Shown here piece after piece: positions 9,752-40,300 of a stretch of DNA of 46,150 nt. Origin of the DNA: a virus. Its lineage: Duplodnaviria > Caudoviricetes. Position 1 is the stretch's first letter, and each line of letters starts with the position of its first letter. The notes beneath the pieces were generated by a model that ran no database searches, was not told the origin of the DNA, and saw only the letters and a list, made by a program, of their open reading frames with translations. The DNA lies in IMG/VR virus record IMGVR_UViG_3300046063_000004, positions 1 to 46,150 of that record; one strand, written 5' to 3'. Position numbers and translations under genes: made by a program.

Positions 9752-11614
9752 ATGAGCACCAGAGACGCAGCCCACTACGCGCTCAAGTGCAGCTATAGCC
9801 CGATCCCCATTCCACGCGGAGCTAAGTCGCCGGTCTTTTCAGAGTGGACTCAGGCGCGCTACGACCACGACGACATCGCCACCCTGTTCGAGGATGAGCC
9901 CAACATCGGCATCTTGCTAGGCCAACCCAGCGATGGCCTCATCGACGTGGATCTCGATACCCCTGAAGCGGTCGAGCTGGCAGGGCGGCTATTGCCAGAG
10001 ACCAGCATGATCCACGGGCGCCCCAGCGCGCTGTGCAGCCACTTCTGGTATCAGGTGCCCATCGGCGAGTGCCCAGCCACAGCCAAGTACGTCGATCCGA
10101 CCGATCGCGCGAGCTTAGTCGAGTTGCGCTCCACGGGGTCCCAGACGATCGTGCCACCTTCGATCCACCCGTCCGGGGAAAAGCTGAGATGGCTCGAGCC
10201 ACACCGGAATGAGGTGTGGAGTGTTCCTCCTTCGATTGGCACGAGCGGCGATGAGCTAAGTGGGTGCGTCGCTGCCTTGGCCGCTGCCACGCTACTCACA
10301 CGTCACTGGCCAGGCGAGGGCAGTCGTCATGACGCCGCTGTGGCGTTGTGTGGCGGGCTGTTGCGAGGCGGCTGGGGGATAAGGCTCACCAAGGAGTTCG
10401 TAGCCCTTGTGGCCCAAGTCAGCGGCGATGAGGAGCACCAACAGCGCAAGGCTGACGCAGAGACGACACAGCGGCGCCTTGCTCATGACGGACAGATCCA
10501 GGGCTGGCCCACCTTGTCCAAGCTGTTGGGCAAGGAAGTCGTTGACGCGGTCATCGCTTGGCTACAGCTCAAGACCGAAAGGGCAGATGACAACGAGGAA
10601 AGCGAGGACATCCCCAATCGTCGTCTCGTGGGCAAGGCAATACGTGAGGGTGTGGACAACCCTGAGCAGATCGTTCCCGGGGTGCTGTACACCGGCATGA
10701 TCCACTGGTGGCAAGGTCCACCCGAGGGGGGCAAGAGTCTGCTGTTGTTGTCGATCATGTCCTCATTGGTCCATCAAGGTTATACCGTAATGTGGATTGA
10801 TGAAGAAACAGGGTTGGCTACAACTGCTGATCGTCTTTCACGTATGGGTGCCGACCCCGATACACTCGATGAGAAGTTCTGGTATTATGAGTCACCAGGA
10901 TTGGCCATGAACCAAGACAACCGTGAACGACTTGCTTTGAGCCTCAATCGAGCGAAACCCGATGTTGTGGTGATGGACTCTTGTAGCGACATGCTGGCCC
11001 AAGCGGGTCTCGACGAGGACTCCAACTCAAACATCACGGATTGGTACCACTCGTTCGTCACACCACTAACTCAGCACGGTGCAACGGTGGTCATCATCGA
11101 CCATGTCACCAAAGCCAGAGACAGTCGGGGTACGTACGCTCGAGGGGCTGGAGCGAAAAAGGCCAAGGCCGATGTGGCGTGGGGGGTCAATGTGGAGGAG
11201 CGCTTCGCCTTGGATCCACCACGCTTGGGCCGCATCGCCCTGACGATCAACAAGGATCGCCTTGGCCGTTTACCTGGGCGCGTGACTTACTCAATCGGTG
11301 CGACGAGTGATGGGCACACGCGCGTACGTCGCCTCAATGGTGGAACAAGGGTTGTCAGCGCACGAGAGCGTATCCGCACCAACATCACCAACATGTTGTT
11401 GGAGCGAACAGGGGATCCCGATAACGCGATGTCTACCTCTGAGGTTAGCCAAGTCATTGAGGGCAAGGATGTTGTCATCCGCCAGGTGCTCAATGAGTTA
11501 GAACAAGACGAAGAGTCTCCTGTTACTTACTATACCCAGACCGCATCCGAGACTGCCACCAAGTACTGGTGGGCTGAAGACAGTAGCAGCGTCATTGAAG
11601 TCGACTTCTCTTAG
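9752..11614 (+). CDS. bifunctional DNA primase/polymerase (Prim-Pol) fused to a RecA/AAA_25-type helicase
   Basis: PIPRGAKSP, NIGILLG, DVDLD, H, PPSIHPSG Prim-Pol motifs; Walker A GPPEGGKS, VVVMDS, IIDHVTK, KDRLG. Confidence 0.92.
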   Translation: MSTRDAAHYALKCSYSPIPIPRGAKSPVFSEWTQARYDHDDIATLFEDEPNIGILLGQPSDGLIDVDLDTPEAVELAGRLLPETSMIHGRPSALCSHFWYQVPIGECPATAKYVDPTDRASLVELRSTGSQTIVPPSIHPSGEKLRWLEPHRNEVWSVPPSIGTSGDELSGCVAALAAATLLTRHWPGEGSRHDAAVALCGGLLRGGWGIRLTKEFVALVAQVSGDEEHQQRKADAETTQRRLAHDGQIQGWPTLSKLLGKEVVDAVIAWLQLKTERADDNEESEDIPNRRLVGKAIREGVDNPEQIVPGVLYTGMIHWWQGPPEGGKSLLLLSIMSSLVHQGYTVMWIDEETGLATTADRLSRMGADPDTLDEKFWYYESPGLAMNQDNRERLALSLNRAKPDVVVMDSCSDMLAQAGLDEDSNSNITDWYHSFVTPLTQHGATVVIIDHVTKARDSRGTYARGAGAKKAKADVAWGVNVEERFALDPPRLGRIALTINKDRLGRLPGRVTYSIGATSDGHTRVRRLNGGTRVVSARERIRTNITNMLLERTGDPDNAMSTSEVSQVIEGKDVVIRQVLNELEQDEESPVTYYTQTASETATKYWWAEDSSSVIEVDFS

Positions 11615-11634
11615 CCACACACCCAGGGCAAGCA

Positions 11635-13149
11635 ATGAGCGCACACAACGGGGCAAGGCTTGGGGGCTATCAGTTCGCCACTACGCCCATGGCCCACCAG
11701 GCACAAGCGCTGCGGGCCATCATCGAGCGCAAGGGTGTGTGTGGCCTGCTCATGTCGCCTGGGACCGGAAAGAGCAAGCCCATCATCGACTATGTCGCCC
11801 TGTTATGGCACAAGCGGGGGCAAGTCGACTGGATGATTACGGTGCCCTTGAACGCCTTGGATACGTGGCCCCAAGAGTTCTCCTTGCACTTGCCCAACAG
11901 CGTGCCGCTGGAGCTGATCCAGCTCGATGGGCGCTACTCCATTGCCACTAAGATTGCCCGCATCGAGGCCCTGGCCAAACAGCCTGGCCATGGCAAGTTG
12001 CGCGTAGTGCTGATCAACCATGACGCGTTTGCGTCCAAGGCGCGTATGAAGGGCACGGCCACCAAGACCATGCAAGACGGCATCGTCGAGGCGATCGGTC
12101 TGTGGCAGCCTGATGGGATCACACTAGACGAGTCACAAAGATGTAAATCTCACACAGCTAATCGAGCAGTCGGATTGCGGCGAGTCGGCGAAGTGGTGGC
12201 CAAGCGCCAGATCCTGACTGGCACCGTATCACCCAAGAACCCACTCGACATCTACGCGCAGTGGAAGTTCCTCAATCCGCAGCGTTTCGATAAGCGCTGG
12301 GCCGACTTTTGCCGACGCTATGCCATGTGGGGTGGCTTCGAGGGCAGACAGCCCACGCGCTTTGTGCGCCAGGATCAGATGCGCAAAAAGATCAAGCAAG
12401 ATGCGTTCATCGCCACCAAAGAGCAATGCCTGGACCTGCCCGCAACGACTGATCGCACCGTACCGGTCGATCTCGGCAAAACCGAGGCGAGCGTCTACCG
12501 GGAGCTGGGCCAGCACTTGATGGCCGAGCTTCCTTCGGGTCAGACGGCCATTGCCCCTATCGTGTTGACCAAGGTGCTGCGACTGCGGCAAGTCACCGGT
12601 GGCTTTCTTGGCTACGAGGACGATTATTACAAGCATCACACCGAGGAGCTTGGCACCAGCAAGCTCGACGTGCTGGCCGACCTGTTACGGGATCTGTTCG
12701 ACGCCCAGGAGAAAGTGGTTATCTTTGCCCACTTTCGCCCCGATATCCAGCGCATCTGTGACATGCTGGGCAAACGCTTTGGCTCAACACAGGTATTTCG
12801 CGTCGAGGGCCAAACAGCTCACAAGTCAAGGCTAAGCGCGCGCCAGGGCTTTGCCGCCACCGAGGGGGCAGCGGCCATGGTCGCCCAGCAGCGCACCATG
12901 AGCTTGGCGGTCAATGAGCTAGTCGCCAGCAGCCACGCGGTGTTCTACTCACTGTCGGAGCGCCGCGACGATTACGATCAGGCCAAGGATCGCCTGCACC
13001 GCCAGGGCCAGATGCGGCCGGTCACCTTTCACCACTTGGTGGTACCCAACTCGGTCGACACCATGCTGTTGTCGGCCCACCGCGACAAGATCGCCCTGGA
13101 GAACGCGCTGTTGCAGGATCAACGCGCACTGACCCTGGATGGCCGATGA
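11635..13149 (+). CDS. SNF2-family helicase
   Basis: MSPGTGKS, LDESQRCK, LTGT, LRLRQVTGG, KVVIFAHF, QAKDRLHRQGQ. Confidence 0.93.
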   Translation: MSAHNGARLGGYQFATTPMAHQAQALRAIIERKGVCGLLMSPGTGKSKPIIDYVALLWHKRGQVDWMITVPLNALDTWPQEFSLHLPNSVPLELIQLDGRYSIATKIARIEALAKQPGHGKLRVVLINHDAFASKARMKGTATKTMQDGIVEAIGLWQPDGITLDESQRCKSHTANRAVGLRRVGEVVAKRQILTGTVSPKNPLDIYAQWKFLNPQRFDKRWADFCRRYAMWGGFEGRQPTRFVRQDQMRKKIKQDAFIATKEQCLDLPATTDRTVPVDLGKTEASVYRELGQHLMAELPSGQTAIAPIVLTKVLRLRQVTGGFLGYEDDYYKHHTEELGTSKLDVLADLLRDLFDAQEKVVIFAHFRPDIQRICDMLGKRFGSTQVFRVEGQTAHKSRLSARQGFAATEGAAAMVAQQRTMSLAVNELVASSHAVFYSLSERRDDYDQAKDRLHRQGQMRPVTFHHLVVPNSVDTMLLSAHRDKIALENALLQDQRALTLDGR

Positions 13150-15236
13150 CGTTTCCGGTGGTCGCCCAACACATCGTCAGCCAGGGTGAGCTGGAAGAGC
13201 TGATCACGCTGCTCAACGCCACCCAGAAGGTATGCCTGGACATCGAGACCCAGACCGACGACACCAACAATCTCAACCCAAGGGCGGCCGGCGCGCGGAT
13301 CGTGTCGATCTCGTTTACGACAACTCCGGGCATGGGCTACGTCGTGCCACTGAGTCACCCCAACAGCCCGTGGCCATACTCTTGGCGCAATGTATTGCGA
13401 CGGCTGGTCCAGGCAGCCATGGCCAAAGACGACGACGCGCTGAGGGGCAAGCTCATCGCCCACAACATCCAGTACGAGGCGCGCTGGATACAAGTCTTAG
13501 TTGATATCAACATCGCGCCCTGTGCGTGGTGGGACACCATGATGAGCACCCACCTGCTGGATGAGAACCGACCCAAGGACTTGAAGTCGGTCGTTGATCA
13601 AGAGCTGGGCATCGCTCCGTGGGGCATCAACCTATCCGCCCCCGAGGGTGCCCCCTGGCAGCAACTGGCTCATTACAACGCGCAAGACACCGACTACTGC
13701 TATCAGCTCCACGAGAAGCACAAACAGCATCTGCGCGACGATGAGGCCGTGGCCCGGGTGTGGCACTACATCGGCATGCCCGCCATCCGCGCCTTCATTC
13801 ACGTGGAGCACACGGGGCTGGGCCTGGACCTGGAGCAAGTCCAGTCGCTTACGATCACAAGCGAGAGCGAGCTTACTAGGACCGAGCGTGAGCTGTACCA
13901 GTGGATCCCCCCTCATCTGTTAGAGGAGTTCGGCGAGGATCAAGCACACGTCCACAGCGATGAGTGCCCGGCGTGGAAGTGCCCGGTGTGTGGCGTGGAG
14001 TGGACCCACGCAGAGACTAAAGAGACCGACACCGTCAAGCCAGCCAATCCCCCACTGTGTGTGATCTGCGAGCGCACGGCCATCCCCAAGACGTGTAAAA
14101 AGAAAAAGGACAAGCGCTACCCGATCTCATGGAGCCCCACCAGCAAGTTCTTCGCAGCGTTCATGGGCGCGCTGGCCCCGGTTATTGAGACCACGCCCAA
14201 GGGCGCGCCCTGTTGGGACGCGGCGGTGCTGGCCAGGCTTTCCCAGATGGGGTATGCCTTTGCCGATGTGTTGCTTTCCTATCGCGATCATCGCAAGAAG
14301 CTGGACTTCCTGTTCGACTGGCAAAACCGTGCGGTCAACGCACGCCTGTATCCCAGCTACAAGCCAGCCCACGTCGTAAGCGGACGCACATCTTCGCAGG
14401 AACCCAACATCCAACAGACCCCCAAGAGCCTGCGCTCGGCGATCACCGCCCCGCCCAGCTATTGGTTCGTCGAGGTCGATCACAGCCAGATCGAGCTGCG
14501 CGTGGCCGCCGAGCTAGCTAGCCGGGCTACTGCGGGCAAGGCTGAGCCGAGGATGCTGCAGGCGTATCTACGAGGAGAAGACCTGCACACGCTCATGGCC
14601 GCGCGCATCACGGGCAAAAAACCCGAGAATGTCTCTGACACAGAAAGGTTTCATGCCAAGGCCGCAAACTTTGGCTTTCTATATTCCATGACCTCAACGA
14701 CGTTCTCTACCCAGGCCTGGCGTGACTATCAGCTCGACTTCGACCCCCAGCAGGCCGCAGAGCTGAGATCGGCCTTCTTCGAGCAGTGGCCAGAGATCGG
14801 CCTGTGGCACGAGCACCAGCGCTCGATCGCCCGTCGGGGCCAGGTGCGCAGCCTGCTGGGACGCAAGCGCCGCTTGCCAGATATCGACTCCAACAACCCC
14901 GCCAAGGTCGGCGAGGCCCAGCGCATGGCCATCAACGCCCCCGTCCAGAGCCTGGCCAGTGACTTGACCCTGCTGGGCATGATCGCCGCCCACAAGGCCC
15001 TGGACCCAGACAAGGCCCGGGTGGTGGGCACCGTGCACGACTCGGTGCTGCTGGAGGTGTCCAAGGCCCACCTGACTGACTCCCTCAAAGTCGTCTCAAA
15101 CGCACTCCTGTATCCTGACCTGAAGGGAAAGTTCGGTGTGGAGTTGACAGTACCCCTAAAGATAGAGTATACTATTGGCAGGTTTTGGGCAGACCCCAAA
15201 GCCAGAGAAGTCCAAGTTCACAGAAAGGGCACATGA
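13146..15236 (+). CDS. polA: DNA polymerase family A with 3'-5' exonuclease
   Basis: Exo motifs CLDIET, AHN..YE, YNAQD; SGRTSSQEPNIQQ; motif A DHSQIELR; motif B KAANFGFLY; AINAPVQSLASD; motif C VHDS. Confidence 0.96.
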   Translation: MTFPVVAQHIVSQGELEELITLLNATQKVCLDIETQTDDTNNLNPRAAGARIVSISFTTTPGMGYVVPLSHPNSPWPYSWRNVLRRLVQAAMAKDDDALRGKLIAHNIQYEARWIQVLVDINIAPCAWWDTMMSTHLLDENRPKDLKSVVDQELGIAPWGINLSAPEGAPWQQLAHYNAQDTDYCYQLHEKHKQHLRDDEAVARVWHYIGMPAIRAFIHVEHTGLGLDLEQVQSLTITSESELTRTERELYQWIPPHLLEEFGEDQAHVHSDECPAWKCPVCGVEWTHAETKETDTVKPANPPLCVICERTAIPKTCKKKKDKRYPISWSPTSKFFAAFMGALAPVIETTPKGAPCWDAAVLARLSQMGYAFADVLLSYRDHRKKLDFLFDWQNRAVNARLYPSYKPAHVVSGRTSSQEPNIQQTPKSLRSAITAPPSYWFVEVDHSQIELRVAAELASRATAGKAEPRMLQAYLRGEDLHTLMAARITGKKPENVSDTERFHAKAANFGFLYSMTSTTFSTQAWRDYQLDFDPQQAAELRSAFFEQWPEIGLWHEHQRSIARRGQVRSLLGRKRRLPDIDSNNPAKVGEAQRMAINAPVQSLASDLTLLGMIAAHKALDPDKARVVGTVHDSVLLEVSKAHLTDSLKVVSNALLYPDLKGKFGVELTVPLKIEYTIGRFWADPKAREVQVHRKGT

Positions 15237-15508
15237 TGGCAGAGAGCCCACAAGTCGGCGAGACCTTCTCCAGCCAGGTCGAGGTGCTGTCGATCGTCGA
15301 GAAGGTCGATCGCCGCCAGAACGGGGTCACTCACCGAGTGCGCATCCGCTTTACCTCGGGGCCACTCAAGGGCCTTGAGACGTCAGTCAAGCAGCCGGTG
15401 AGCGAAAAACCCAAGGGCGTGCGCAAGGTAGCCAAGCAACCAGCCTCCCAGGGGGCCCCCCAGGGTGGCGCCGGAGGCAGCCAGGGCGAGCAGGGCGAGG
15501 ACGAGTAG
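15233..15508 (+). CDS. hypothetical protein
   Basis: ATGA overlap with the polA stop; GAAAGGG RBS. Confidence 0.65.
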   Translation: MMAESPQVGETFSSQVEVLSIVEKVDRRQNGVTHRVRIRFTSGPLKGLETSVKQPVSEKPKGVRKVAKQPASQGAPQGGAGGSQGEQGEDE

Positions 15509-15552
15509 CCTCGAAGTTCGCGCGGTCGACCCACACACAAAAGGAGACGCAA

Positions 15553-15795
15553 GTGCATCGACTCAAGATGGTCGCCTGTGAGCTGGCACGACGGGTGCTG
15601 TGGCGGTGGTGGCCACATACCTATGTGGCCAACCTCCCCGGTTATGAGCCCCCCTTGATGGTCCATGCTGGCGGGCCCCGTAGGCCCGACATGCCCACAA
15701 TCAACCAATCCTCGGTCGTGCTGGAGTGCACGATCGTGGTTGGTGACGTGGTCCAAACCGCTCAGGAGGTCAGCGATAGGGCCAACAGTGGCTGA
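15553..15795 (+). CDS. hypothetical protein
   Basis: AAAGGAG RBS, GTG start. Confidence 0.55.
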   Translation: MHRLKMVACELARRVLWRWWPHTYVANLPGYEPPLMVHAGGPRRPDMPTINQSSVVLECTIVVGDVVQTAQEVSDRANSG

Positions 15796-16936
15796 GTCGT
15801 TGCCCATCCATCACAGCCACCTTCACACCGCGCGCAGATGCTTGCGCCAATACCGCTACGCCTACGTCGAGGGGCTAACCCCCAGGCAGCCCACGCTGCC
15901 GCTTGCACGGGGGCTGTGGCTGCACTACTGCCTGGCTGCGGCTCACATCGCCGATGGGCTGGACAAGGGCAGCCTGCTCGAGGTGCCAGAGACGATCGAC
16001 ATCGACGACGTGGGCCCGGTGGCCATCGACCACGACCAGGCAAGCCTGATCGTGCCGCATACACCCAATCGAAAAGAGCAGTCCTATCCCTTGAGCTGGC
16101 AGGGCATGTTGCAACTATTGGTGGAACATGCGTGGATGCGTCTGTTCCCCGAGGAGCAAACAAGCTACGTCGAGCACGGCCACACTTTGCCTGAAGCGGT
16201 GGAGAAGATCCTGCGGGGTTACTTCTATCACTACCGCACAACCCTCGAGGCTGAAGCGCCGCTGCTGGTGGAGTTCCCCTGGAAGCGCACCCACGAGTCG
16301 GGCCATACCTTCGCCGGCCAGGTCGATCTGGTCACTAGGGACCCCCGGGGCATGGTCGTGCTGCGGGATTGGAAGTCGTCCAAGTCCGCGCCCAAGGCGA
16401 GCTGGAAGCTCATGGAGTCCCAGCTCCACCTGTACCCGTGGGGCCTGCAGCCAACCCTGGACGAGCACGGCATCTCGATTGACTACATCGAGTTCGACTA
16501 CCTGTTGACCAAGCCGCCGACCAAGCCGGCTCAGAACAAGGACGGCTCATTATCAAAACGAGCTATTGATACTGACGCGCTGACCTACCTCGAGGCCCTG
16601 AAGGAATACGGCATCGAGATCACCAGCGAGCACAAGCGCAAGCTCGCCGAGCTAAAGCATCACAACCCCTTTGTGGAGCGCACGCCGGCTCCACGCAACA
16701 AGGGGGTCACCGAGCAGATCCTGGCCGAGGCGGTCCAGACCGCAAGCGAGATGAAGCAAGTCCACCAGCGCCCGCATGTGGGCCAGGTGCGCACCGTCAA
16801 GCAAAGCTGCGAGTGGGACTGCCCGTATACGGAACTGTGCATGGCCGAGCTGTGGGGCCACGATACTCACAGCCTGCGTCAGCGCGACTTTCATCAACCC
16901 ACACACACACAGAATGGGAACGCAAAAAGGACCTAG
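15788..16936 (+). CDS. Cas4/RecB-like PD-(D/E)XK exonuclease
   Basis: RRCLRQY, GQVDLV...LRDWKS, QLHLY, C-terminal CEWDCPYTELC (four Cys, Fe-S type). Start at GTG 15788 is inferred. Confidence 0.88.
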   Translation: MAESLPIHHSHLHTARRCLRQYRYAYVEGLTPRQPTLPLARGLWLHYCLAAAHIADGLDKGSLLEVPETIDIDDVGPVAIDHDQASLIVPHTPNRKEQSYPLSWQGMLQLLVEHAWMRLFPEEQTSYVEHGHTLPEAVEKILRGYFYHYRTTLEAEAPLLVEFPWKRTHESGHTFAGQVDLVTRDPRGMVVLRDWKSSKSAPKASWKLMESQLHLYPWGLQPTLDEHGISIDYIEFDYLLTKPPTKPAQNKDGSLSKRAIDTDALTYLEALKEYGIEITSEHKRKLAELKHHNPFVERTPAPRNKGVTEQILAEAVQTASEMKQVHQRPHVGQVRTVKQSCEWDCPYTELCMAELWGHDTHSLRQRDFHQPTHTQNGNAKRT

Positions 16937-16938
16937 GG

Positions 16939-17727
16939 ATGGCAACGCCACTAACAAAAATGAACGACGATGCATTGAAGATGTTATTGCATGGAAGATC
17001 CGGTACAGGAAAAAGTTCGTTTGGCTCAACGATCGCACAATCATGTAAAACCCTCTACATCGACTTGCCCGGTGAGAAGGGGATCAAGTCGATCAAAAAT
17101 GCATCGTATGCTAACAACATCATGGTCGAGCGCCCCCAAAGCGTGACCGAGATCAGCCAACTGTTTTGGGACACCCAGACAGGCCAGGTTGATTGTCAAG
17201 CGGTCATGCTCGAGTCGATCTCGGCGTTACAGAAAATGTATGTGCGCTACCTGCTAGGGATCAGCGAGGACAGTGTCCAAGAGGTCACACAAAACCCCAA
17301 GGGCCTGGACATGCAGGGTTGGGGTAAGGTCCTCTCCTTTATGACCGATCAGATCGTGTTCTGGTACAACCTGGCTGACTCCGAGCGTGACAACCCCATA
17401 CACATCGTTATGACCTCTCAGTCCAAGACGGTCGAGGACGAGGACACCGGTGAGACTGAAGTTTCTCCCGATGTGTCCAAAGGCAGCCGAGCGATTGTGG
17501 AAGCGAGCCCGGACTACATCGGGTATTGCTTCGTCGAGGAAGGAGAGAGTGAGAGCCTAACCGAGGAGAAGTGGAACTTCTGTGTCCGCTTTGGCCCACA
17601 CGACATGATCCGCACCAAGGTGCGCGAGGATGCCGACTCGGCAAAGAAACTACCCTACGTGCTGGGCCGCAAGAACCGCCCTACCGTGCCCAAGCTGGCC
17701 AAGCGCTTGGGCATCCCTCTTACGTAG
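16939..17727 (+). CDS. Sak4-like AAA ATPase / single-strand annealing protein
   Basis: LLHGRSGTGKS, LYIDLPGEKG, MLESIS, QGWGK; typical position between exonuclease and SSB. Confidence 0.85.
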   Translation: MATPLTKMNDDALKMLLHGRSGTGKSSFGSTIAQSCKTLYIDLPGEKGIKSIKNASYANNIMVERPQSVTEISQLFWDTQTGQVDCQAVMLESISALQKMYVRYLLGISEDSVQEVTQNPKGLDMQGWGKVLSFMTDQIVFWYNLADSERDNPIHIVMTSQSKTVEDEDTGETEVSPDVSKGSRAIVEASPDYIGYCFVEEGESESLTEEKWNFCVRFGPHDMIRTKVREDADSAKKLPYVLGRKNRPTVPKLAKRLGIPLT

Positions 17728-17761
17728 TTAGCCTGCACGTTCACAGCCAGGAGGCAAAGGC

Positions 17762-18712
17762 ATGGTCAAGAAAGGCGACAGCACGATCGAGCTGGACTTC
17801 TCAAACACGTCACGCCGTGACACTCGCCTGCCCGAGGGCGAGTACATCTTCAAAGTCGAGGATGCCAAACAGCAAAAGGCCAAGACCTCGGGCAACCCCA
17901 TGATCGTGTTCACCCTGGTGGTCAACCACGGCTCGATGACCGGCTCGCAGGTGACCTATCGCCAGATGCTGCTAGAGCAAAACCTCTGGTCCTTTCGCAA
18001 CATGCTAGAGGCCATGGGCCACAAGATCCCGGAAGGAAAGATCAAGATCCGCCTGGAGACCCTGGTGGGCAAAGAGGTCGGCGCCCGTGTGGCCGACGGC
18101 GAGCCCTACAACAACCGGATCAAAAGCGAGGTCATCGACTTCTTGAAGCCCAATGCGGTGATCATCGACGCCCACCTGCGCAGCGACAAGTCCGGTGCTG
18201 GCGAGACCGAGATCTTCACCGAGGATACCGAGGCCGCCTACGACGACCTCGACGAGGACGAAGAAGAAGAAACCCCACAGGCGGCGACCGAGGACGAGGA
18301 GGACGACCTCGAGGAGCCAGACGAGGAGGAGGGCAACCAATCCTTACCGGGTGGATCCGAGGAGCTTGACGAGCCCAGCCAACACGACGCGGCCTTCCTC
18401 GAGGAGGAAGACGAGGAGGAAGCCGGCGAGCACCCCGAGGAGACCGATCCGACCAACGTCACGCGCCAGGAGTTCTACGCCCACCTCCAAAACATCGACC
18501 GCAGCGAAGTCTTGGCGTGGGCCAAGGAATACGACGTGCCCCGCGAGAAGGGCAAGAAGAAGCCCACCTACATCGCCGAGATCCTGGAGGTGACCCACCC
18601 CCAGCAGGTTGCAGATCAGGACAGCCAGCAGACTCCCGAGCCAGCCGGCGAGCCCCAGCAGGCCACGATCGAGCAAGAGCTGGATGACCTGGACCTGGAC
18701 GACATCGAGTAG
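17762..18712 (+). CDS. DUF669-like ssDNA-binding protein with long acidic tail
   Basis: LPEGEY.FKVED...KTSGNPMIVFTL...LVGKEV; D/E-rich tail ending DDLDLDDIE. Confidence 0.82.
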   Translation: MVKKGDSTIELDFSNTSRRDTRLPEGEYIFKVEDAKQQKAKTSGNPMIVFTLVVNHGSMTGSQVTYRQMLLEQNLWSFRNMLEAMGHKIPEGKIKIRLETLVGKEVGARVADGEPYNNRIKSEVIDFLKPNAVIIDAHLRSDKSGAGETEIFTEDTEAAYDDLDEDEEEETPQAATEDEEDDLEEPDEEEGNQSLPGGSEELDEPSQHDAAFLEEEDEEEAGEHPEETDPTNVTRQEFYAHLQNIDRSEVLAWAKEYDVPREKGKKKPTYIAEILEVTHPQQVADQDSQQTPEPAGEPQQATIEQELDDLDLDDIE

Positions 18713-18782
18713 CACGCCAACCCAGCGGGGGCTAGCCTGGTCCTTGCCCCCTTGTGTGTGGGCACACGATCGCATGTTCGAT

Positions 18783-18828
18783 AACGAGACCCCCGCCTTA
18801 GCCATCCCCGGCGGGGGTCTCGTTCTTT
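18783..18828 (+). terminator. intrinsic terminator
   Basis: 15-bp stem AACGAGACCCCCGCC/GGCGGGGGTCTCGTT followed by CTTT. Confidence 0.75.
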
Positions 18829-18837
18829 GGGGCAGCT

Positions 18838-19146
18838 ATGAACGAGTCGCAGTTGACCACCCACATCAAAAAGTCGCTGCTGCAGGCCAGACCCGACATG
18901 TGGATGATCAAGGTCCACGGCGGGCCCATGCAACAGCCCGGGGTGCCTGACTTGATCGGCGTGTGGCGGGGTCAGTTCATCGCCCTAGAGGTCAAACACC
19001 CCAACTCGCGGCATCCCGTCACACCGCGCCAGCAACACGCCATTGACCGGATCACCGCTGCCGGGGGGCTCACGGCGGTCGTATCGTCTGTCAGCGAGGC
19101 GGCCCGTATCGTGCTAGGGGATCAGGGGCAGATCACGCAAGGGTGA
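18838..19146 (+). CDS. VRR-NUC domain nuclease (Holliday junction resolvase-like)
   Basis: ESQL...KVHGG...GVPDLI...ALEVK...Q......I..AGG. Confidence 0.92.
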   Translation: MNESQLTTHIKKSLLQARPDMWMIKVHGGPMQQPGVPDLIGVWRGQFIALEVKHPNSRHPVTPRQQHAIDRITAAGGLTAVVSSVSEAARIVLGDQGQITQG

Positions 19147-22100
19147 GTCAGAGCCTTCTTGCTGGTACCTCTTGAGCTTTTCCTGATAGCCAAAGCGTCG
19201 ATTAGCCGCGCGCTCGAAGCGCTGCTGGCGACGCTTGGCGCGCTGGGCCACGTCCTCTTGGCCTGAGGTGATGCCGAATAGCTGGCGCCCGGCCTTCTCC
19301 AACAGCGAGGGCTCCTCGACGCCTTCGGCCAATACCGGCTGGTCGTTGCCATAGCGCGCCAACGTCTCACCCGACAGGCGGCGATAGGTTGATCGCCCAA
19401 GGCTGATCTGTGGCGAGAGGTCGACGATCTGATCACCCAGCGAGGGGGCTGTGGGGATGGGCCGCCCTTGCGGGTCAAGGCGCTCGTAGGGCCGCGAGTA
19501 GGGACGCTGGGTCAGTGGCCTGATCCCGGTCATGTTGCTCAGGCCCATCTGGACCAGCGGACTCATGAGGCTGGCTGAGCCACGCAAGGAGGGGCGGCCA
19601 CCAGAGACGAACGGGCGAGTCACATCCATGAAGGGGTTGGCCCCGCCAACCGAGATGAACGTCGGATCGCCATCCTCGCCGCCTTCGCCGATCTGAATGT
19701 CGCCTCGGCGATAATGGGGCAGCATCTCCTCTTGCTCGTTTGGCTCGCCCCATATCTCGATAAGCATGGCCTGTATGGCAAAGCGGTCGATGTTGCCCGG
19801 CTTGAGCTGCTTGGCGGTAAGCTGGGTGATGTGGCGCGTCCAGGCATAGAAGGGATAGCCACGCCTGATCGCCTGGCGCTCGACCGGGCTCATCGAGGTG
19901 TAATCGCCCAGGGTCTGCTTGGCCGCGCGAATGGCTTGCTGCGGGTTGGCGCCCTCCTCGAGCTGGGACAGATACACCGAGGCGCGATAGATATGATCAA
20001 AGAAGCTGTTGAGCCGAAACGCCCCCTCAACGACGCGCTTGGCCCGGCCACCAACCCTCGAGGTCGTTCCACTTACGAACCGACCCGGGCGCGTGCGCAT
20101 GGCCTCGTCGACCACCGGGATCGCAGACAGACGCTCACCGGTGGCCTGGCCGACGTTGTGGCCAAAAGTTCCCAGCTGGGAGATGTCTCGTTGGAACTCG
20201 CCCATGCTGGTCGAGGTGTCGAATATCTCGTCGCTGCGTGAACGACTCAGGCCGGGCACGTCGGTGGGCTCACCGCGACCCCAACGCATGCGAGCACGGG
20301 CTGCCATGGGCAGATAGCGATAGAGCTGCGATGGCGTGGCCCCGCCACCGAGGATGGGCAGGATGTTTTGCCCGATGTTGTTGAAGACCTGCCAGGCGGG
20401 GCGAAAGGCGAGCACGCCGGCCTTCCATATCCCCATGAGCGGGTCATAGACCGCGTTCATGGCCTTTTCGATGTTGCCTGTCTCGAAGGCGTCCTTGGCA
20501 ACCTTGGCCAAGCCCTCCTTGAGCCAGATATCCGAGCGTGGGGTCTGGCCCTTGCGCTGCAACAGCTCGGCGAACTTGGGGTCGTCAGCGCGAGCAAAGC
20601 CGATGTCGGCCATCTTCTGAGACAGCACGTGGGGCTGTGGCTTCGTCCGGGAGATGACGTTGCCAGCCTCGTCGTAAGTGGTCTTGCCTTCGGCCTCCTC
20701 CATGATCTCATCGACTTTGCCACGCGAGTAACCGGCTTCCTCCAGGGCCTGGCGCGGCGTGCGACCGAACTTCTGGTGGATGTAGCTCACCGCGTCGTCG
20801 CGTAGCTTGTCGGTGACGATGTCCATCTGCTCTTTGGGGATGATGATCGAGGGCTGGTCCTCAGCGTTGATGTTGCCACTAGAGTGGGCTCGGCGGAAAC
20901 GCCGCTGTGCCGTTGCAGCCAACGCCCCTGTAGGTCGGGCCATGAAGTCACCCGACTCGGCGGCCTTGGTACTGACATAGGAAACGTTGACGCCCGCGTC
21001 GGCCAGTTCCTCCAGGGTGGTGGGCAGCCCTGTGAGGTTTAGCTCATCGACCAGGTGATGGGGCACCTCCAGGTCCTCGCGCAGCATGCGATCCAGCTCG
21101 GGGGCCTCCTCGCGAGCAAAGCGCAACGCCTCACGGTAGTGGCGTGGTGCGGTCTCCAGGCGCTGGTTGACGTCGTCCTGGAAGTTCTTCATGCGCGTGC
21201 GGGCAGCCTGGAGCTTTTGTTGCTTCTTAGCCAGGTCCTCCAGGTGGGCGCGTGCCTGGCTTTGGGTCTGGGCCAGGTGCTGCTCAAAGTCGCGCGACTC
21301 GTCCTGATACCGCCGCGCCAGCGCTGATAGCTCGGCGATCTGGCGGTCGAAGTAGTCGCCGCCTTGGCTGCCCAGGGCTTGCCTGCCTCGACGCACCGAC
21401 GACTGACCGCGGTTGGCCGCCCACTGGTGACGCGGCGAGCCCTGGACCTGGGCATTGCCGGCCCGACTGGTTCGGTTACTGGCCCACGCCAGGGCCTGCT
21501 GGTACTCCGGGGTATCGGCCAGGCGGGGATTAGCCCGAGCGGCGCGGTGCAGCGCACGCAGCTCCGGTGAGACCCCCGACAGCCCCTCGCGGCCGATCAT
21601 AGCTAAGATCGGCGACACCTCGGGCATGAGCGACTGGACCTGCTCTAGCTCACCCACGGCCTCGTTGAACCGCGCCAAGGCTTGCTCGTCGGGGGCAAGC
21701 TCGTCGCTGTTGCGCGCGTAGTACAGCAGATCCGAGAGCTTGCCCTCAATCTGTGCGGCCAAGTCGCGCATGGGCTTGGGGCGCCCACCAATGCCTGACA
21801 GCACCAGCTCGTTCTCAAAGGCATTGAGCTGTTCATAGGCGCGCGCGTAGGTGTCCCATGCCTGCTGACCCTGGGCCGTTTCGGGATCGGCGTTCAAGGC
21901 CTCCTTCTCGCGCATGCGCATCTCGGCGTGTAGCTCGTTGTAGCGATCCAGCGCTTCGGCGCGGTGGGCAGCGAACTTGTCGCGCACGAGCTGGGTCTGG
22001 CGATTGACGTCGCGCTCGGCCTTGTCGATGACCCGTTGTTTGCGCCACAGCTTCTTCTGAGTACTCCTTTCTGGGCTGACCCGCTCAGTTGGGGGCTGCT

Positions 22101-32561: not shown

Positions 32562-32570
32562 GAGTGTAAC

Positions 32571-32909: not shown

Positions 32910-33097
32910 GAGATCCCCAAGCCTCCCAACAGCAGCCCAGAGACGATCGTTCCCACGAACGCGAACCCGGCCCCAATGCCGATGATCAAGATCCGCGTGG
33001 CCCGATAGTCCATGCGCTCCTTCCACTGCTCCAGGTGGAACACGCGCCACCGCAAGTCGTTGACCTGGTCCTGCTCGTGCTGGCTTTCCTCAGTCAC
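32906..33097 (-). CDS. small membrane protein (holin/XhlA-like)
   Basis: Coiled N-terminus plus C-terminal TM; adjacent to the endolysin. Confidence 0.6.
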   Translation of the reverse strand: MTEESQHEQDQVNDLRWRVFHLEQWKERMDYRATRILIIGIGAGFAFVGTIVSGLLLGGLGIS

Positions 33098-33148
33098 AGC
33101 CCTACCCCCGCTGCGCCCTTTGAGTTACACCAGCGAGATTACCTCGGG

Positions 33149-33994
33149 TCAGGTCACGCTGCGGCTGTCCCCGTTGCGGGTGCGGATGCGCTGGGCCACC
33201 GCCTCGGCCGTACTGTCACGGGTAGGCCCGCCCACGTCGTGGGTCTCGTTCCACACGTCCATATCGAGATCGCGGATGGCACCCACGCGCACAGCGGTGC
33301 CGATGCTGGCCCGGCCCAGGTCCTTTGAGTGGATGAACTTCCAGTTGTAGGCCTTGCCCAGCACTCGGGCCATGCCCTCGTCGATGTCGTTCTCGGCGAT
33401 CACGGCCACCACGTAGTGGTTGTCGCTGACTTGGTCGGTCTCCCTCGTCTTGAGATCGGGCAGCGACTTGGGTAGGGGCAGGCCCTGCTGGATCCACTCA
33501 TAGACCGGATCGCCCGGGCACGCCTTGGGCGACACGTCGCGGTGGCCATTTACTTCCTCGACGGCGATGCCTTGATCGAGCAGCACATTGCGCAGGCCCA
33601 AGACGGCTGCCTGGGCCTTGTTGGTGAACTCGTTGGCCACCGCACCCAGGTAAGCCACACCCAGCCACACGCGGTTGTAGCCCTTGGCATGGGCGAGCTG
33701 GCGCTGTAAGCCCCTGCCTTCAAGGACGTTGCCATAGCGATCGACGCCCATGGCATAGCCAATGTCGGCCCAGCCCTGGCTGCCGGTATGGAACTGATAG
33801 ATATTACGCCACCACTGGGCCGTGTCCTTGCGCCCGAGGTTGTCGCCGGTGGTGATGTGCAGCGTCATAGCCTCGATCTCTTCAGTCCCTCGAGGCGCCC
33901 CTCCAGGATCGAATGGCAGCCCTGCCTGCTCGCGTGAGACGAACTCACCGGGGATTGCGTTCTCGATGGCCTGGCGCAGTCGATCATCCATCAT
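33149..33994 (-). CDS. endolysin, N-acetylmuramoyl-L-alanine amidase (PGRP/Amidase_2)
   Basis: LHITTG, GWADIGY, EGRG, AHAKGYN, GHRDVSPKACPG. Confidence 0.93.
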   Translation of the reverse strand: MMDDRLRQAIENAIPGEFVSREQAGLPFDPGGAPRGTEEIEAMTLHITTGDNLGRKDTAQWWRNIYQFHTGSQGWADIGYAMGVDRYGNVLEGRGLQRQLAHAKGYNRVWLGVAYLGAVANEFTNKAQAAVLGLRNVLLDQGIAVEEVNGHRDVSPKACPGDPVYEWIQQGLPLPKSLPDLKTRETDQVSDNHYVVAVIAENDIDEGMARVLGKAYNWKFIHSKDLGRASIGTAVRVGAIRDLDMDVWNETHDVGGPTRDSTAEAVAQRIRTRNGDSRSVT

Positions 33995-34212
33995 TGCTGT
34001 TCTCGTTTTTGTTTGAGCTTTCTGGCTCGCGAGGCGGCCACGTCACGCAGCACGTTCGCCGCTGCGCCGATGGCTGCGGCCACGGCGGCCAGCAGCGCCG
34101 AGGCATCCAGGGAAAACAACGCCTGGGCGCCAATGGCCCCGAGGAAGGTGTGCAGCGCCGTCCAGCCAGCTCGAGCGCCGGCCCTGGCTGCTGTCTCACT
34201 CAGAGAGGGCAA
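33991..34212 (-). CDS. holin
   Basis: 73 aa; RAGWTALHTFLG pattern, two hydrophobic segments and a basic tail; overlaps the endolysin start. Confidence 0.75.
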   Translation of the reverse strand: MPSLSETAARAGARAGWTALHTFLGAIGAQALFSLDASALLAAVAAAIGAAANVLRDVAASRARKLKQKREQQ

Positions 34213-34215
34213 CGG

Positions 34216-36717: not shown

Positions 36718-37137
36718 CTAGGCTCCTCCCACCGTTGGGCCCTCCATGTCGACCCCGCGAGCCAGCCATTGGGCCTCGATCGAGTCGTCGACCGTCTCGC
36801 CCCAGCCCACGTCGTCGAAGCCGTGAGGCTCGGCCGGCTCGGAAGATCCGAGTAGCTTCCACCCGCCCGATTGAGTCGCGTGCTGGCCAGCAACGGTCTT
36901 GTCGGTGGCATTGGGCGTGTTTTGCTGCAGCGCGGTGAACTCCTGCCAGGAGTTGGCGGCCAACCGGTTGTGCAGCTCGGCGATGTAATGCTCGCGCTGA
37001 TCCAGAAGCTGGGAGTACTCGCTGCGCAGATCACTGATCTCAGCGCGCCAAAACCGCGACAGGGCGAACACGGTCGCCGCCACGGTGGCCAGCATGACCA
37101 GCGCGAGGACGAAAGCCAGGATCACAACGGTCGTCAC
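36718..37137 (-). CDS. membrane protein with coiled coil
   Basis: N-terminal TM; overlaps the upstream gene. Confidence 0.7.
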   Translation of the reverse strand: MTTVVILAFVLALVMLATVAATVFALSRFWRAEISDLRSEYSQLLDQREHYIAELHNRLAANSWQEFTALQQNTPNATDKTVAGQHATQSGGWKLLGSSEPAEPHGFDDVGWGETVDDSIEAQWLARGVDMEGPTVGGA

Positions 37138-38054
37138 GAGGTCTCTCCTTCCTCTTCATCATCGACGATCAGCTCGTCTTCATCGACTGGTTCGTTATCC
37201 CGCTCGTGGCCGGCGTTCTCGTCGATGGGCTGGTCGTAGTCCTGATCCCGGGCGCCCTCGACGAACTCAAAGCCCAAGCCGGTGATTAGCCCCTTGCGCG
37301 CGCGTCCATAGCCGCGGTCGGCCAGCTCCAGCTCGCGGTTGACCACCTGGGTGCGAAACTCCTCGGAGTGGCCCTCACAGAAGGCGATGATGTCGGCCAC
37401 TTTCTCGGCCAGCAGCGCGTCGATGTCGACCTCTTGGCCCTCGAGCTGAGTCGTCATGGGCGTGGATGGCTGGCCGTGATCCTGCTGCGTGGTGGGCGCG
37501 GTGCTTTGTTGTTGTTGTTGGGTCTGCTCGGCGCGCTTGCGGGCCACGTCGGCGTAGTGCTTGGCCTTGCGGCGTTGATGCGGCGCGCCGTAAAGCTGCT
37601 CGTGCTCGACCGCGCTGCCTGGCTCGGGGGGCTGGTGATGTCGCAGCAGGGGGTGGTTGGGGTGCTCAATGAGCCATTGCTCGATCTCGTCGCGGGTGGG
37701 GTCGCGCACTTCTCTCTTGATCTCGGTGACCACCTCAGCCTCGGGTGAGGGCATGACCTCGGCTGCCGCATTGGCCAGGCGCATGACCAGCTCTTGGTAC
37801 TTGTCGGCCTGGTCCTGCAAGTGGTTCGCACGAGCTTCCTCTTGGGCCGCCTGATCGCGCAGCTTGGCGGCCTGGTCCGGGTCAACCCAGCCCTGTTGGC
37901 GCAACGGCTTGGCAATGGCGTCGATCTTGACGTACAGGCGTCCATAGCCGTTGATGTCGCGGCCAAGGTCGAGTACCGGCCCCCGACCGTCGCCAGAGAC
38001 GACACACGTCATGGGTGACGTTTTTGGCTTGGGCAGGATCTGGACATTGGCCAT
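37134..38054 (-). CDS. hypothetical protein
   Basis: ~306 aa, GAGG RBS before ATG 38054, coiled coil. Confidence 0.7.
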   Translation of the reverse strand: MANVQILPKPKTSPMTCVVSGDGRGPVLDLGRDINGYGRLYVKIDAIAKPLRQQGWVDPDQAAKLRDQAAQEEARANHLQDQADKYQELVMRLANAAAEVMPSPEAEVVTEIKREVRDPTRDEIEQWLIEHPNHPLLRHHQPPEPGSAVEHEQLYGAPHQRRKAKHYADVARKRAEQTQQQQQSTAPTTQQDHGQPSTPMTTQLEGQEVDIDALLAEKVADIIAFCEGHSEEFRTQVVNRELELADRGYGRARKGLITGLGFEFVEGARDQDYDQPIDENAGHERDNEPVDEDELIVDDEEEGETS

Positions 38055-38071
38055 GTTTGCACCTCTTCGAT

Positions 38072-39178
38072 TTAGGATAACAGCCACATGTCGTCTAACG
38101 AGTCCTCGTCTGCTTCTTCGCCCACCAGATCAGCCGGGGTCAGCTCCTCGGTTAGCTCTGGCTGTGACTCGTCGACCACGGGGGCCTGGCGAACGTCCTG
38201 GTCGTTGGCCTGCAGATAAATCTTGGCCAGCTCGGAGATGTGGGACTCGCTCTCGTCTTCCTCCAAGTCCAGCAAGTTTGATGTGATGCCGATGTTGAGG
38301 TTGCAGGCGGCGATGTACTCCAAGGCGTCCATGAGGTGCACATAAGGCTCCTCTTGGACCTTCTTGCCCAGGTCTGGCATCTCGCGATCACCCGTGCCCG
38401 CGTCAGCTTCCGGGTAGCGATAAGCCGAGGAGAGAGCCTTGATCAGCAGCGTGCAGTGGGGGTTGACGCGGAACTTGCCCTCGCGCTCGACGTACTCGCG
38501 CAGGTAGTTGATGCGGTTCTTGCGACCCACGACCGACCACTCAGGGTCGATGCCGAACTGGTTGAGTACCTCGATGGATGAGAACTCGCTGTTCTCCTTG
38601 CGTTGATTGCCCGCCGGATCGCAGAAGTCGGCGATCCCCGCGCTGTCTTGCTCTAATGCCTGGGGAAACAGGCGCTGGGTCTGGTCAATGACCTTCTTGG
38701 CCAACTGGTGGGTGGATAGCCCAGCGAGCTGGTCGCGGTCGATGGTGGGATACAGCTCGTGCAAGCACACCAGCGTGTCGTCGGGCCACAGTTGGGCCCA
38801 CACCACGGCCGGGTGGCGATAGCCAAAGTCCCAGCCGCGCCACAGCGGCACCCGGGGGTTGTAGCGGGTGGGCCGCACGCTGTTGTTGGGGTCGAACTGA
38901 GAGTAGACGGCCTCACCGGAGAAGGCGGTGAAGTCGATCTCCATCTCGCGTTGCCAGTCGCGGCCTTGGAAGCCGCCCCGGTAGCCCACGACGTAGTGGT
39001 TGCGCCACTCACTCGTCGCCCGGTCGGGGTCGGCGGTGTAGTGCAGCCGGAGCACCAGATAGCCATCGTTGGTCTTCCAGCCCCGGATGCCGGGCATCAC
39101 CGGCTCGGGGATGCGCGTGCGTGGCAGCTTGAACGTGAACTCACCGGAGTCGCTGCCGTCCGCGTGCGCCTCGGGCAT
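38072..39178 (-). CDS. terL: terminase large subunit, C-terminal (lid plus RNase H-fold nuclease) part
   Basis: LHYTADP, WQREMEIDF..FSG.AVY, RGWDFGYRHPAVVW, CDPAG, HLMDALEY. Confidence 0.88.
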   Translation of the reverse strand: MPEAHADGSDSGEFTFKLPRTRIPEPVMPGIRGWKTNDGYLVLRLHYTADPDRATSEWRNHYVVGYRGGFQGRDWQREMEIDFTAFSGEAVYSQFDPNNSVRPTRYNPRVPLWRGWDFGYRHPAVVWAQLWPDDTLVCLHELYPTIDRDQLAGLSTHQLAKKVIDQTQRLFPQALEQDSAGIADFCDPAGNQRKENSEFSSIEVLNQFGIDPEWSVVGRKNRINYLREYVEREGKFRVNPHCTLLIKALSSAYRYPEADAGTGDREMPDLGKKVQEEPYVHLMDALEYIAACNLNIGITSNLLDLEEDESESHISELAKIYLQANDQDVRQAPVVDESQPELTEELTPADLVGEEADEDSLDDMWLLS

Positions 39179-39209
39179 GGCTTGCCTCGACGTGGTGGGC
39201 TAGCTGCTG

Positions 39210-39374
39210 CTAGCTGCTCGAGCTGGAGTTGGCCTCGATGGCGGCCTGCTGCATATACGCCTTGCGCTTGGCCCGCTTACGGCTCTGTTCATCGCCAGCG
39301 GTGTAGTGGTACTTGGCCTGGCCGCCGTACTGATAGTAGTGGCCCTGGCTGTCCTTGCCTGCGTGCACCGGCAT
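39210..39374 (-). CDS. small basic phage protein inserted between the terL halves (54 aa, MPVHAGKDSQGHYYQYGGQAKYHYTAGDEQSRKRAKRKAYMQQAAIEAN...)
   Basis: GAGGAG RBS, ATG 39374, TAG 39210-39212; below the ORF-track cutoff; different frame from terL. Confidence 0.75.
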   Translation of the reverse strand: MPVHAGKDSQGHYYQYGGQAKYHYTAGDEQSRKRAKRKAYMQQAAIEANSSSSS

Positions 39375-39385
39375 AGGAAGGCTCC

Positions 39386-40300
39386 TCAAGCCCCAGCAGG
39401 CACGGGGATGCGGCCATTCTCGCTCAGCGTAGAGTGAAAGACCTCCTCACCGTTGGGCGTGCTCACTCCGGTGAAGCGCCCACCTCCCTTGACGGTGGGC
39501 ATCGCAGCCCTGAAAATATCATCTGCCTGTTCTTGAAACGCGACCTCATCGGAAAAAACCCAACTGAAAGTAAACTGTCTTAGCCCTTTTGCTTCTTCGC
39601 CCATTGCATGAACAATAGACTCCATCTGAGGGCAACTGACTTCACCACTTTTTCGGTGTTTATCGAATGCGGCCGGCACGGAGAAGCGGCTGTGCGGCAG
39701 CCGGTTGTAGATCGTCTCCATGCGGTCGATCAGCGAGTCGGCGTCCTCGAACTTCTTAGAGATCACCGCCATGCGCTGTGCCGGGCGCACCAGCAAGTTG
39801 TGGGTGGCGATGCAGCAAAACAGCCAGGTGACCATGACCTGGCGGCTCTTGGGCACCAGCAACAGCGGCTGAAAGACCCAGGCATAGCTGAGTAGGCGCA
39901 GGTAGTCCTTGTCGGGCAGCGTCTTGTAGGGGTTGGCCTCGTCGTGCTCGTCCAGCGTCTGAGCCCAGCCGCCCACTCGCACCTTGACCCACGGGTTGTC
40001 ATCGGGGTCGTAGGCCCGCTGCGGGTCTACTGGTAGCCCCGTGATGTCGACCAGCCCGCCGAAGAGGAACCAGCGCAGGCTGTCCCAATGCTTGCGCTGA
40101 TAGAAGCGATCCCTTACTCGACGCTGGGCCACATCGCCCGTCTGACGCTTGGCGTCGGCAATGGCCTGTTGCTCCTTGCTGGTGAAGTCAGCGATGGTCG
40201 TGGCCCGCAGCCACGCCTTCTTGTCGACCAGCTCCTTCAGGGCCACCAGGTCGTCCTGGGACAGCTCTCGTAGTGCGGCCGGTAAGTCTTGCGTCTTCAT
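39386..40300 (-). CDS. terL: terminase large subunit, N-terminal ATPase part
   Basis: Walker A VPKSRQVMVTW, Walker B VFSDEVAF, motif III VSTPNG. Confidence 0.9.
   Translation of the reverse strand: MKTQDLPAALRELSQDDLVALKELVDKKAWLRATTIADFTSKEQQAIADAKRQTGDVAQRRVRDRFYQRKHWDSLRWFLFGGLVDITGLPVDPQRAYDPDDNPWVKVRVGGWAQTLDEHDEANPYKTLPDKDYLRLLSYAWVFQPLLLVPKSRQVMVTWLFCCIATHNLLVRPAQRMAVISKKFEDADSLIDRMETIYNRLPHSRFSVPAAFDKHRKSGEVSCPQMESIVHAMGEEAKGLRQFTFSWVFSDEVAFQEQADDIFRAAMPTVKGGGRFTGVSTPNGEEVFHSTLSENGRIPVPAGA

What the first reader, a model, noticed from the sequence alone, without database searches (positions are those of the whole stretch)
10772..39670. A/T-third-position codon islands placed on catalytic motifs of six core enzymes
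Seen (hand counts of A/T-ending codons in genes that otherwise favour G/C): primase-helicase WIDEE motif after Walker A, 10772-10849, 20/26; SNF2 DESQ (Walker B), 12121-12174, 14/18; PolA motif B, 14616-14684, 13/23; Cas4-like KDGSLSKRAIDT, 16547-16573, 9/9; Sak4 Walker A GRSGTGKS near 16993-17016, 7/8; TerL Walker B region, 39506-39670, 35/55. The protein motifs stay intact, so the shift looks synonymous. Known: such motifs are favoured targets of inteins, group I introns and their homing endonucleases, and conserved DNA is also what cross-reactive CRISPR spacers hit. Inference: this could be systematic recoding that immunises homing sites, co-conversion scars left by lost mobile elements, or programmed translational pauses at active-site folds. 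The Sak4 case is weakest because it lies near the gene start, and the primase gene is less GC3-biased overall.
Basis: partly seen in the sequence, partly recalled or inferred. Interest (0 to 1): 0.75.

Follow-up and report, generated by a model that had tools for sequence, protein, structure and literature searches.

The report
Codon scars at phage intein sites
In this GC-rich phage, the patches of A/T-ending codons in the terminase and Sak4 genes lie exactly where close relatives carry self-splicing inteins with DNA-cutting domains, so they are likely scars of intein invasion and escape; the four other patches have no intein found yet and two of them are statistically weak.

Summary
All six hand counts reproduce. 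In an amino-acid-controlled scan the TerL island is far beyond chance (FWER<0.001), primase, Cas4 and SNF2 are borderline (0.017-0.07), and PolA motif B is not significant.

Two islands straddle intein insertion sites:
- TerL Walker B (39554|39553): a relative with 143 of 149 extein residues identical carries a LAGLIDADG intein there, and its DNA flanks carry the same A/T tract.
- Sak4 Walker A (17013|17014): two cluster members carry one.

Intein-free alleles vary most at these junctions. A third intein site (SNF2 Walker A) has no island. No intein was found at the primase, SNF2-DESQ, PolA or Cas4 islands, and the Cas4 patch is not on the catalytic motif.

Distant GC-rich homologues lack the islands, which argues against conserved translational pauses. 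An unrelated 66%-GC phage family shows A/T excess at its own intein sites (top 0.2-1.3% of windows) and not at six control motifs.

Best reading: homing scars, made of co-converted foreign flanks plus escape variants. No donor was found and endonuclease activity is untested. The concept is known from mitochondria and haloarchaea; I did not find it described as a GC3 dip in intein-free phage genes.

The parts
39515..39670 (-). TerL ATPase A/T3 island, residues 211-262, from about 117 nt before to 39 nt after the intein site
   Evidence: 34/52, FWER<0.001; shared by L001 and L002, 36/49 each, and by the intein-bearing contigs of run X8
39553..39554 (-). Empty intein insertion site F249|S250 at Walker B (SWVF|SDEV)
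   Evidence: P0076, P0212, P0091 and L125 carry a related intein here; X8 loose ends at 39553 and 39538
39530..39575 (-). Cluster of allele differences around the junction (codons 242-257); candidate escape allele
   Evidence: 9 differences in 48 nt against L001 or L002, 2 in the preceding 90 nt; 8 of 30 private changes, permutation p=0.02
39386..40300 (-). Terminase large subunit, ATPase half (split gene; nuclease half 38072-39178)
   Evidence: PHROG 2 for both halves; the 80 top homologues are 284-334 aa apart from the intein-bearing P0076
16948..17049 (+). Sak4 A/T3 island, residues 4-37 (gene starts at 16939)
   Evidence: 22/34; 22/32 informative codons against 56/214 in the rest of the gene
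17013..17014 (+). Empty intein insertion site K25|S26 at Sak4 Walker A
   Evidence: P0148 and P0152 carry a 324-aa LAGLIDADG intein here; same site in L212 and L322
11763..11764 (+). Empty intein site G43|T44 at SNF2 Walker A; no island here
   Evidence: P0140 carries a 267-aa HNH-type intein; A/T3 5/23 before and 2/13 after
10772..10849 (+). Primase-helicase island centred on T353 after WIDEE; no intein found
   Evidence: 20/26, FWER 0.017; no long member among 25 hits or listed cluster members
12121..12174 (+). SNF2 Walker B (DESQ) island; one relative has a replaced peptide here; no intein found
   Evidence: FWER 0.070; P0141 differs at 4 of 18 residues
14565..14684 (+). PolA weak patches (YLRGE 5/5 and motif B 13/23); no intein found
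   Evidence: not significant alone; 6 of 23 motif-B residues differ from two relatives, p=0.02; the homologue of the first patch is also A/T-rich in family 2
16547..16573 (+). Cas4-like exonuclease patch 9/9 (gene starts at 15788); not the catalytic motif; no intein found
   Evidence: FWER 0.022; none of 15 cluster members is longer than 390 aa

Best explanation
The TerL and Sak4 islands surround empty intein insertion sites and are likely scars of intein homing: an intein endonuclease would cut the empty allele, repair would copy the intein plus flanking DNA of lower GC3, and surviving empty alleles would accumulate escape changes at the junction. Shown: inteins with LAGLIDADG domains sit at these exact codons in near-identical relatives; the TerL intein-bearing allele carries the same A/T tract; intein-free alleles are most variable at the junction; both islands end 12-13 codons after the site. 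Inferred: cleavage, a foreign origin of the tract, a homing-driven sweep, and how intein-free alleles came to carry the tract (precise loss, or recombination with converted alleles). The primase, SNF2-DESQ, PolA and Cas4 patches may be the same thing at sites whose element is unsampled or lost (about 45% for primase and SNF2, 30% for PolA and Cas4).
For: TerL: intein at F249|S250 in P0076 (143 of 149 extein residues identical; LAGLIDADG_3 E=5e-8) and in P0212. In X8 two contigs read from the flanks into the intein ends; the 127-nt upstream flank has 4 differences from the window; 8 of 15 intein codons seen end in A/T against 34/240 in L001's TerL outside the island (read by hand). L001 vs L002 differ at 2 of 153 nt inside and 50 of 759 outside the island (p=0.004). 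Sak4: intein at K25|S26 in 2 of 13 members and a fragment in a third; 6 peptide classes among 9 intein-free members. Same geometry: codons -24..-1 16/21 and 15/22; +1..+13 8/13 and 8/13; +14..+40 6/26 and 6/26. 2 of 3 intein sites fall in islands covering 184 of 4,677 core codons (P=0.0045 at score >=6). Family 2, intein-free alleles only: A/T3 excess at intein sites in the top 0.2%, 0.4% and 1.25% of 2,552 windows; six control motifs at 18-79%.
Against: The SNF2 Walker A intein site has no island. No intein at four of the six islands, on small samples. No donor found for any tract. Every close intein-free TerL allele with DNA in hand (window, L001, L002, X3, X4) carries the tract, so an unconverted GC-rich allele was never seen, and precise intein loss is thought rare. 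The window's junction cluster is not significant against either relative alone (p=0.27, 0.18). Sak4 scores 7.8, so the 2-of-3 result depends on the threshold of 6. In family 2 the intein-bearing Sak4 flanks are not A/T-rich (0/10 and 2/11 upstream), so co-conversion alone does not explain that site; the two PolA sites are 7 codons apart and genomes are related, so the ranks are not independent tests.
Confidence: 0.72

Rival explanations
1. Pure escape recoding: synonymous changes in the endonuclease recognition site are selected, and in a GC3-saturated genome any such change tends to be to A/T; no foreign DNA is needed.
For: Family 2 Sak4: intein-free alleles are A/T-enriched and diverse within about 6 codons of the site while intein-bearing flanks are not. 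Two TerL homologues of the 80% clade lack the +1 Ser (P0003, P0210).
Against: The TerL tract is about 156 nt, far longer than a 20-40 bp recognition site (size recalled; 20-30 bp in PMC5378118), is shared by the intein-bearing allele and is low in diversity; the window's private junction changes mostly restore G/C.
Confidence: 0.12
2. Ordinary mosaic recombination with lower-GC relatives at conserved motifs came first; the imported patch then made a target for the donor's intein.
For: The population is mosaic (primase P0097 joins two allele types); TerL homologues at 48-49% GC (L088, L092) and a 38%-GC carrier of the same intein (L125) exist. It explains intein-free alleles with the tract without precise loss.
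Against: Conserved motifs without inteins show no excess in family 2 or in distant homologues; the same downstream edge at two sites and the junction variability are not predicted. No donor found.
Confidence: 0.09
3. Mutagenic repair of repeated endonuclease cuts drifts nearby silent sites to A/T (still intein-caused, but no donor and no selection).
For: Proposed for fungal mitochondrial introns (PMC5378118, passages); raised synonymous diversity at family-2 sites (top 0.7-5.4%).
Against: The TerL tract is nearly monomorphic among L001, L002, X4 and X8.
Confidence: 0.04
4. Programmed translational pauses at active-site folds, or CRISPR-escape scars.
For: Most islands are on conserved motifs; rare codons are used.
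Against: No excess at these motifs in 14-29 clusters of GC3-rich homologues per gene (p=0.20-0.94); L089-L091 have 2/43, 1/47, 1/47 over the TerL island. Coincidence with intein junctions is not predicted. Spacers were not searched.
Confidence: 0.03

Closest known systems
Co-conversion tract of the angiosperm mitochondrial cox1 homing intron (PMC3192709, passages read)
   Same: Third-position synonymous differences flanking a homing site, shared with the element-bearing allele; a rare element-free allele keeping the tract.
   Different: There the tract described is 3' and 3-35 bp and almost never in intron-free genes; here it is mostly 5' (about 117 nt), common in intein-free alleles, belongs to inteins in a phage and is visible as a GC3 dip.
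SNP gradients beside mobile introns in yeast mitochondria (PMC5378118, abstract parts and passages read)
   Same: Raised diversity at homing junctions, explained by mutagenic repair or co-conversion from outside the population.
   Different: Introns in organelles; no base-composition signal discussed (0 hits for 'GC content').
Invasion-resistant mcm alleles and extein co-conversion in haloarchaea (PMC10643990, passages read)
   Same: Empty alleles lacking the +1 nucleophile; co-conversion of flanking residues.
   Different: Cellular gene; one-residue effect, no codon-bias tract in the passages read.
Mycobacteriophage terminase inteins TerL1-e (Walker B) and Pham3880-g (PMC5050341, passages read)
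   Same: Walker B of TerL is a known intein site; the P0076 intein is about 34% identical to the terminase intein of cluster C1 phages such as ET08.
   Different: The ET08 intein inserts at another motif (LASSPY|C), and its flanks show no island (3 of 24 upstream, 2 of 13 downstream).

Membership tests
Intein homing site | In-frame intein at the site in homologous alleles | tested here: met
   TerL F249|S250 and Sak4 K25|S26; also SNF2 G43|T44, which has no island
Intein homing site | In-frame intein at the primase, SNF2-DESQ, PolA motif B and Cas4 islands | tested here: inconclusive
   None among 25 primase hits, 6 SNF2, 3 PolA, 15 Cas4 cluster members, or 372 loci; samples small
Intein homing site | Splicing ends (terminal His-Asn, +1 Ser/Thr/Cys) | tested here: met
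   TerL C...HN|S; Sak4 G...HN|T (class-3-like, motif reading recalled); SNF2 C...HN|T
Intein homing site | Homing endonuclease domain | tested here: met
   LAGLIDADG_3 above cut-off in P0076, P0148, P0152; HNH_3 just below cut-off in P0140
Intein homing site | Endonuclease cuts the empty allele | not testable with these tools
   Needs a cleavage assay
Co-conversion tract | Tract shared with the element-bearing allele | tested here: met
   TerL only, run X8; no DNA for Sak4 intein alleles of this family
Co-conversion tract | Tract absent from never-invaded alleles and traceable to a donor | tested here: inconclusive
   Absent in distant homologues but present in all 5 close intein-free alleles with DNA; no donor found
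Homing-resistant allele | Changes concentrated in the recognition site or loss of the +1 nucleophile | tested here: met
   TerL 4 of 16 vs 7 of 288 variable residues p=0.0014; Sak4 5 of 13 vs 18 of 249 p=0.003; resistance itself untested
Conserved translational pause | Rare-codon cluster conserved across homologues | tested here: not met
CRISPR-escape patch | Matching host spacers and PAM or seed changes | not tested
   No spacer collection searched

The most novel reading that the evidence does not exclude
In GC-rich phages, A/T3 dips are a readable map of an intein arms race. Every island here marks a present or past homing site, including four not yet known to host inteins (primase WIDEE|T353, SNF2 Walker B, PolA GEDLH/motif B, Cas4 KDG|S). 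Endonuclease pressure between co-infecting phages then drives diversifying selection inside Walker A and B motifs, down to amino-acid changes and loss of the +1 nucleophile.
Probability: 0.35. Interest if true: 0.72.

Novelty: new variant of a known kind. Interest (0 to 1): 0.52.

Why it matters
Resistance of empty alleles to intein homing is proposed but little documented in phages (the actinophage intein survey, 10.1101/2025.01.02.630785, leaves it as future work; passage read). This locus gives natural intein-bearing, tract-bearing and divergent empty alleles of the same gene for a direct cleavage test. It also suggests that intein history can be read from one intein-free genome, and warns that silent sites at the most conserved phage motifs can be foreign or under selection. 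Two targeted searches listed no paper on GC3 dips at empty phage intein sites; the library lacks most subscription papers.

Tried and rejected
Conserved pause: rejected. Gene-start effect for Sak4: rejected. RNA family or free-standing homing endonuclease in the window: none (Rfam 0 hits; no HNH, GIY-YIG or LAGLIDADG among 26+50 ORFs). One weak antisense promoter-like match at 39489-39517 (9 of 12), not pursued. Donor for the tracts: not found in IMG/VR, JGI metagenome or GTDB scans; a blastn of the PolA 3' half in phages found nothing. Close relatives of the replication genes were not found in IMG/VR, so their silent sites could not be compared. Read laying on 9700-19200 showed no insertion at any island in X5 and none among listed loose ends, but 59 loose ends and 1,517 differences were not shown and X8 was not among the runs. 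The two-piece Rasputia helicase hit shows no intein-like ends. PolA tblastn in phages: no split hit in 60 of 311 rows shown. The Sak4 count (7/17) included two alignment artefacts and was recounted as 5/13. The probability at score >=8 is not used because Sak4 scores 7.8. A profile search of the 1.84-billion protein set was not obtained, so deeper intein searches for SNF2, PolA and Cas4 remain open. Supplements of the cited papers were not read.
Full report
Setting. The window is a whole 46,150-nt contig, 62% GC, with phage genes: Prim-Pol/AAA_25 primase-helicase, SNF2 helicase, PolA, PD-(D/E)xK exonuclease, Sak4-like ATPase, SSB-like gene, a split large terminase, P22-like portal, major capsid protein, SU10-type adaptors and an amidase. 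The 10 runs listed for it are halite metagenomes from 3 studies; one may be its source. The host was not determined.

Observation. All six counts reproduce. I scanned 42 genes (12,752 codons, starts corrected by hand) against a null that keeps amino acid and gene mean. Eight segments score 8 or more against 0.74 expected. TerL 39515-39670 is extreme (34/52, FWER<0.001). Primase (0.017), Cas4 (0.022) and SNF2 (0.070) are borderline. PolA motif B is not significant. With the true start at 16939 the Sak4 island is 22/34 codons long and is the most A/T-rich codon 13-37 stretch of the 42 genes. Four of the top eight segments are off catalytic motifs.

TerL. One of 94 homologues, P0076, is 143/149 identical in its exteins and carries a 255-aa LAGLIDADG intein between F249 and S250, inside the island. 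Related inteins occupy the same site in P0212 (57% identical), P0091 and L125. In run X8, one of four runs laid, two contigs leave the window sequence at 39553 and 39538 and read into the first ten and last five intein codons (translated by hand). The 127-nt upstream flank differs from the window at 4 places, so the intein-bearing allele carries the A/T tract; 8 of those 15 intein codons end in A/T. Intein-free L001 and L002 carry it too (36/49 each) and differ at 2 of 153 nt inside against 50 of 759 outside, as after a sweep. The window differs from each at 9 nt in codons 242-257; 8 of its 30 private changes fall there (p=0.02; not significant against either relative alone), mostly towards G/C. 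Three peptide classes occur among 7 intein-free cluster members, and 2 proteins of the 80% clade lack the +1 Ser.

Sak4 and SNF2. Two of 13 Sak4 cluster members carry a 324-aa LAGLIDADG intein at K25|S26, inside the island. Nine intein-free members fall in six peptide classes around the site. TerL and Sak4 share geometry: 16/21 and 15/22 before, 8/13 and 8/13 just after, 6/26 and 6/26 beyond. One of 6 SNF2 members has an HNH-type intein at Walker A (G43|T44), where alleles also vary but the window has no island. So 2 of 3 intein sites lie in islands that cover 3.9% of core codons (P about 0.005, threshold-dependent).

The other four. No intein was found at primase (25 hits), SNF2-DESQ, PolA (2 relatives) or Cas4 (14 other members), nor at these motifs in 372 loci. 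Hints only: the primase island is centred on Thr353; one SNF2 relative has a replaced peptide at DESQ; 6 of 23 PolA motif-B residues differ from both relatives, which have Cys at 507.

Controls. Of 77 more distant TerL loci only L087 shows an excess at p<0.01. Across GC3-rich homologues (14-29 clusters per gene, five genes) none of the tested motifs shows an excess, which rules against a conserved pause. In the 66%-GC family of L030 and Dulem virus 38 (L212), inteins occur at Sak4 Walker A (L212, L322) and at two PolA sites 7 codons apart (L212, L023). Scoring only intein-free alleles (30 Sak4, 13 PolA, 33 SNF2, 33 Cas4, 28 primase), these sites rank in the top 1.25%, 0.2% and 0.4% of 2,552 windows for amino-acid-controlled A/T3. 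Six control motifs rank at 18-79%; a seventh motif without a seen intein, RGDDLH, ranks in the top 1%. Those four inteins have about twice the A/T3 of their host genes (for example 75/312 against 20/232). L023's upstream flank is A/T-rich (8/12) and pieces of it recur in intein-free alleles; the Sak4 intein flanks are not A/T-rich. Both co-conversion and escape patterns therefore occur. Relatedness was not corrected for.

Mechanism. Most likely (0.72): homing brings in the intein with flanking DNA of lower GC3, the tract spreads with the intein, and empty alleles persist and diversify at the junction. The sites, the shared TerL tract and the junction variation are shown. Cleavage, donor, order of events and the origin of tract-bearing empty alleles are inferred. 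Pure escape recoding (0.12), patch first then intein (0.09), mutagenic repair (0.04) and pause or CRISPR (0.03) are the rivals.

Known and new. Co-conversion tracts (PMC3192709, passages), diversity gradients at homing introns (PMC5378118, passages), resistant empty alleles (PMC10643990, passages) and Walker B terminase inteins (PMC5050341, passages) are known. PMC9957025 and the bioRxiv actinophage survey were read as passages only. Searches listed nothing on GC3 dips at empty phage intein sites. Eight unchecked notes from this scan describe the same pattern in other genomes; they are not evidence, but they suggest it recurs. Verdict: real for two of six islands with direct intein evidence, open for the rest; a new variant of a known kind; interest 0.52.

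Noticed in passing
window 39210-39374 (-): A 54-aa ORF sits between the two halves of the split large terminase; no Pfam hit. The split is family-wide.
   Followed up: partly
window 9752-11614; P0097, P0098, P0133-P0135: Two primase allele types (about 73% identical) segregate among phages whose other genes are above 90% identical; P0097 is a mosaic of the two.
   Followed up: partly
window 14565-14579; L022, L025, L030, L031 PolA RGDDLH: The same PolA motif carries a short A/T3 run in this phage (5/5) and in family 2 (top 1% of windows, low diversity), with no intein seen in either.
   Followed up: partly
window 44794-44817 (-): Fifth-ranked A/T3 island (6/8, score 9.4) in a small virion-region gene; none of 13 cluster members is longer.
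   Followed up: partly
window 11740-11815: Run X5's contig stops aligning across SNF2 Walker A without a length change, matching the allele variation at that intein site.
   Followed up: partly
L212 12011-12964, L322, L026 13149-13916, L319: Related class-3-like LAGLIDADG inteins sit after the Walker A lysine of Sak4 in some phages and of SNF2 in others; the SNF2 ones have host-like GC3 and no clear island.
   Followed up: partly
L087 TerL: A 67%-GC TerL homologue (54% identical) has a milder A/T3 excess over the same stretch (13/43 vs 23/233, p=9e-4).
   Followed up: no
window 8748-9506 (+): ORF with weak helix-turn-helix hits upstream of the primase, a possible regulator.
   Followed up: no
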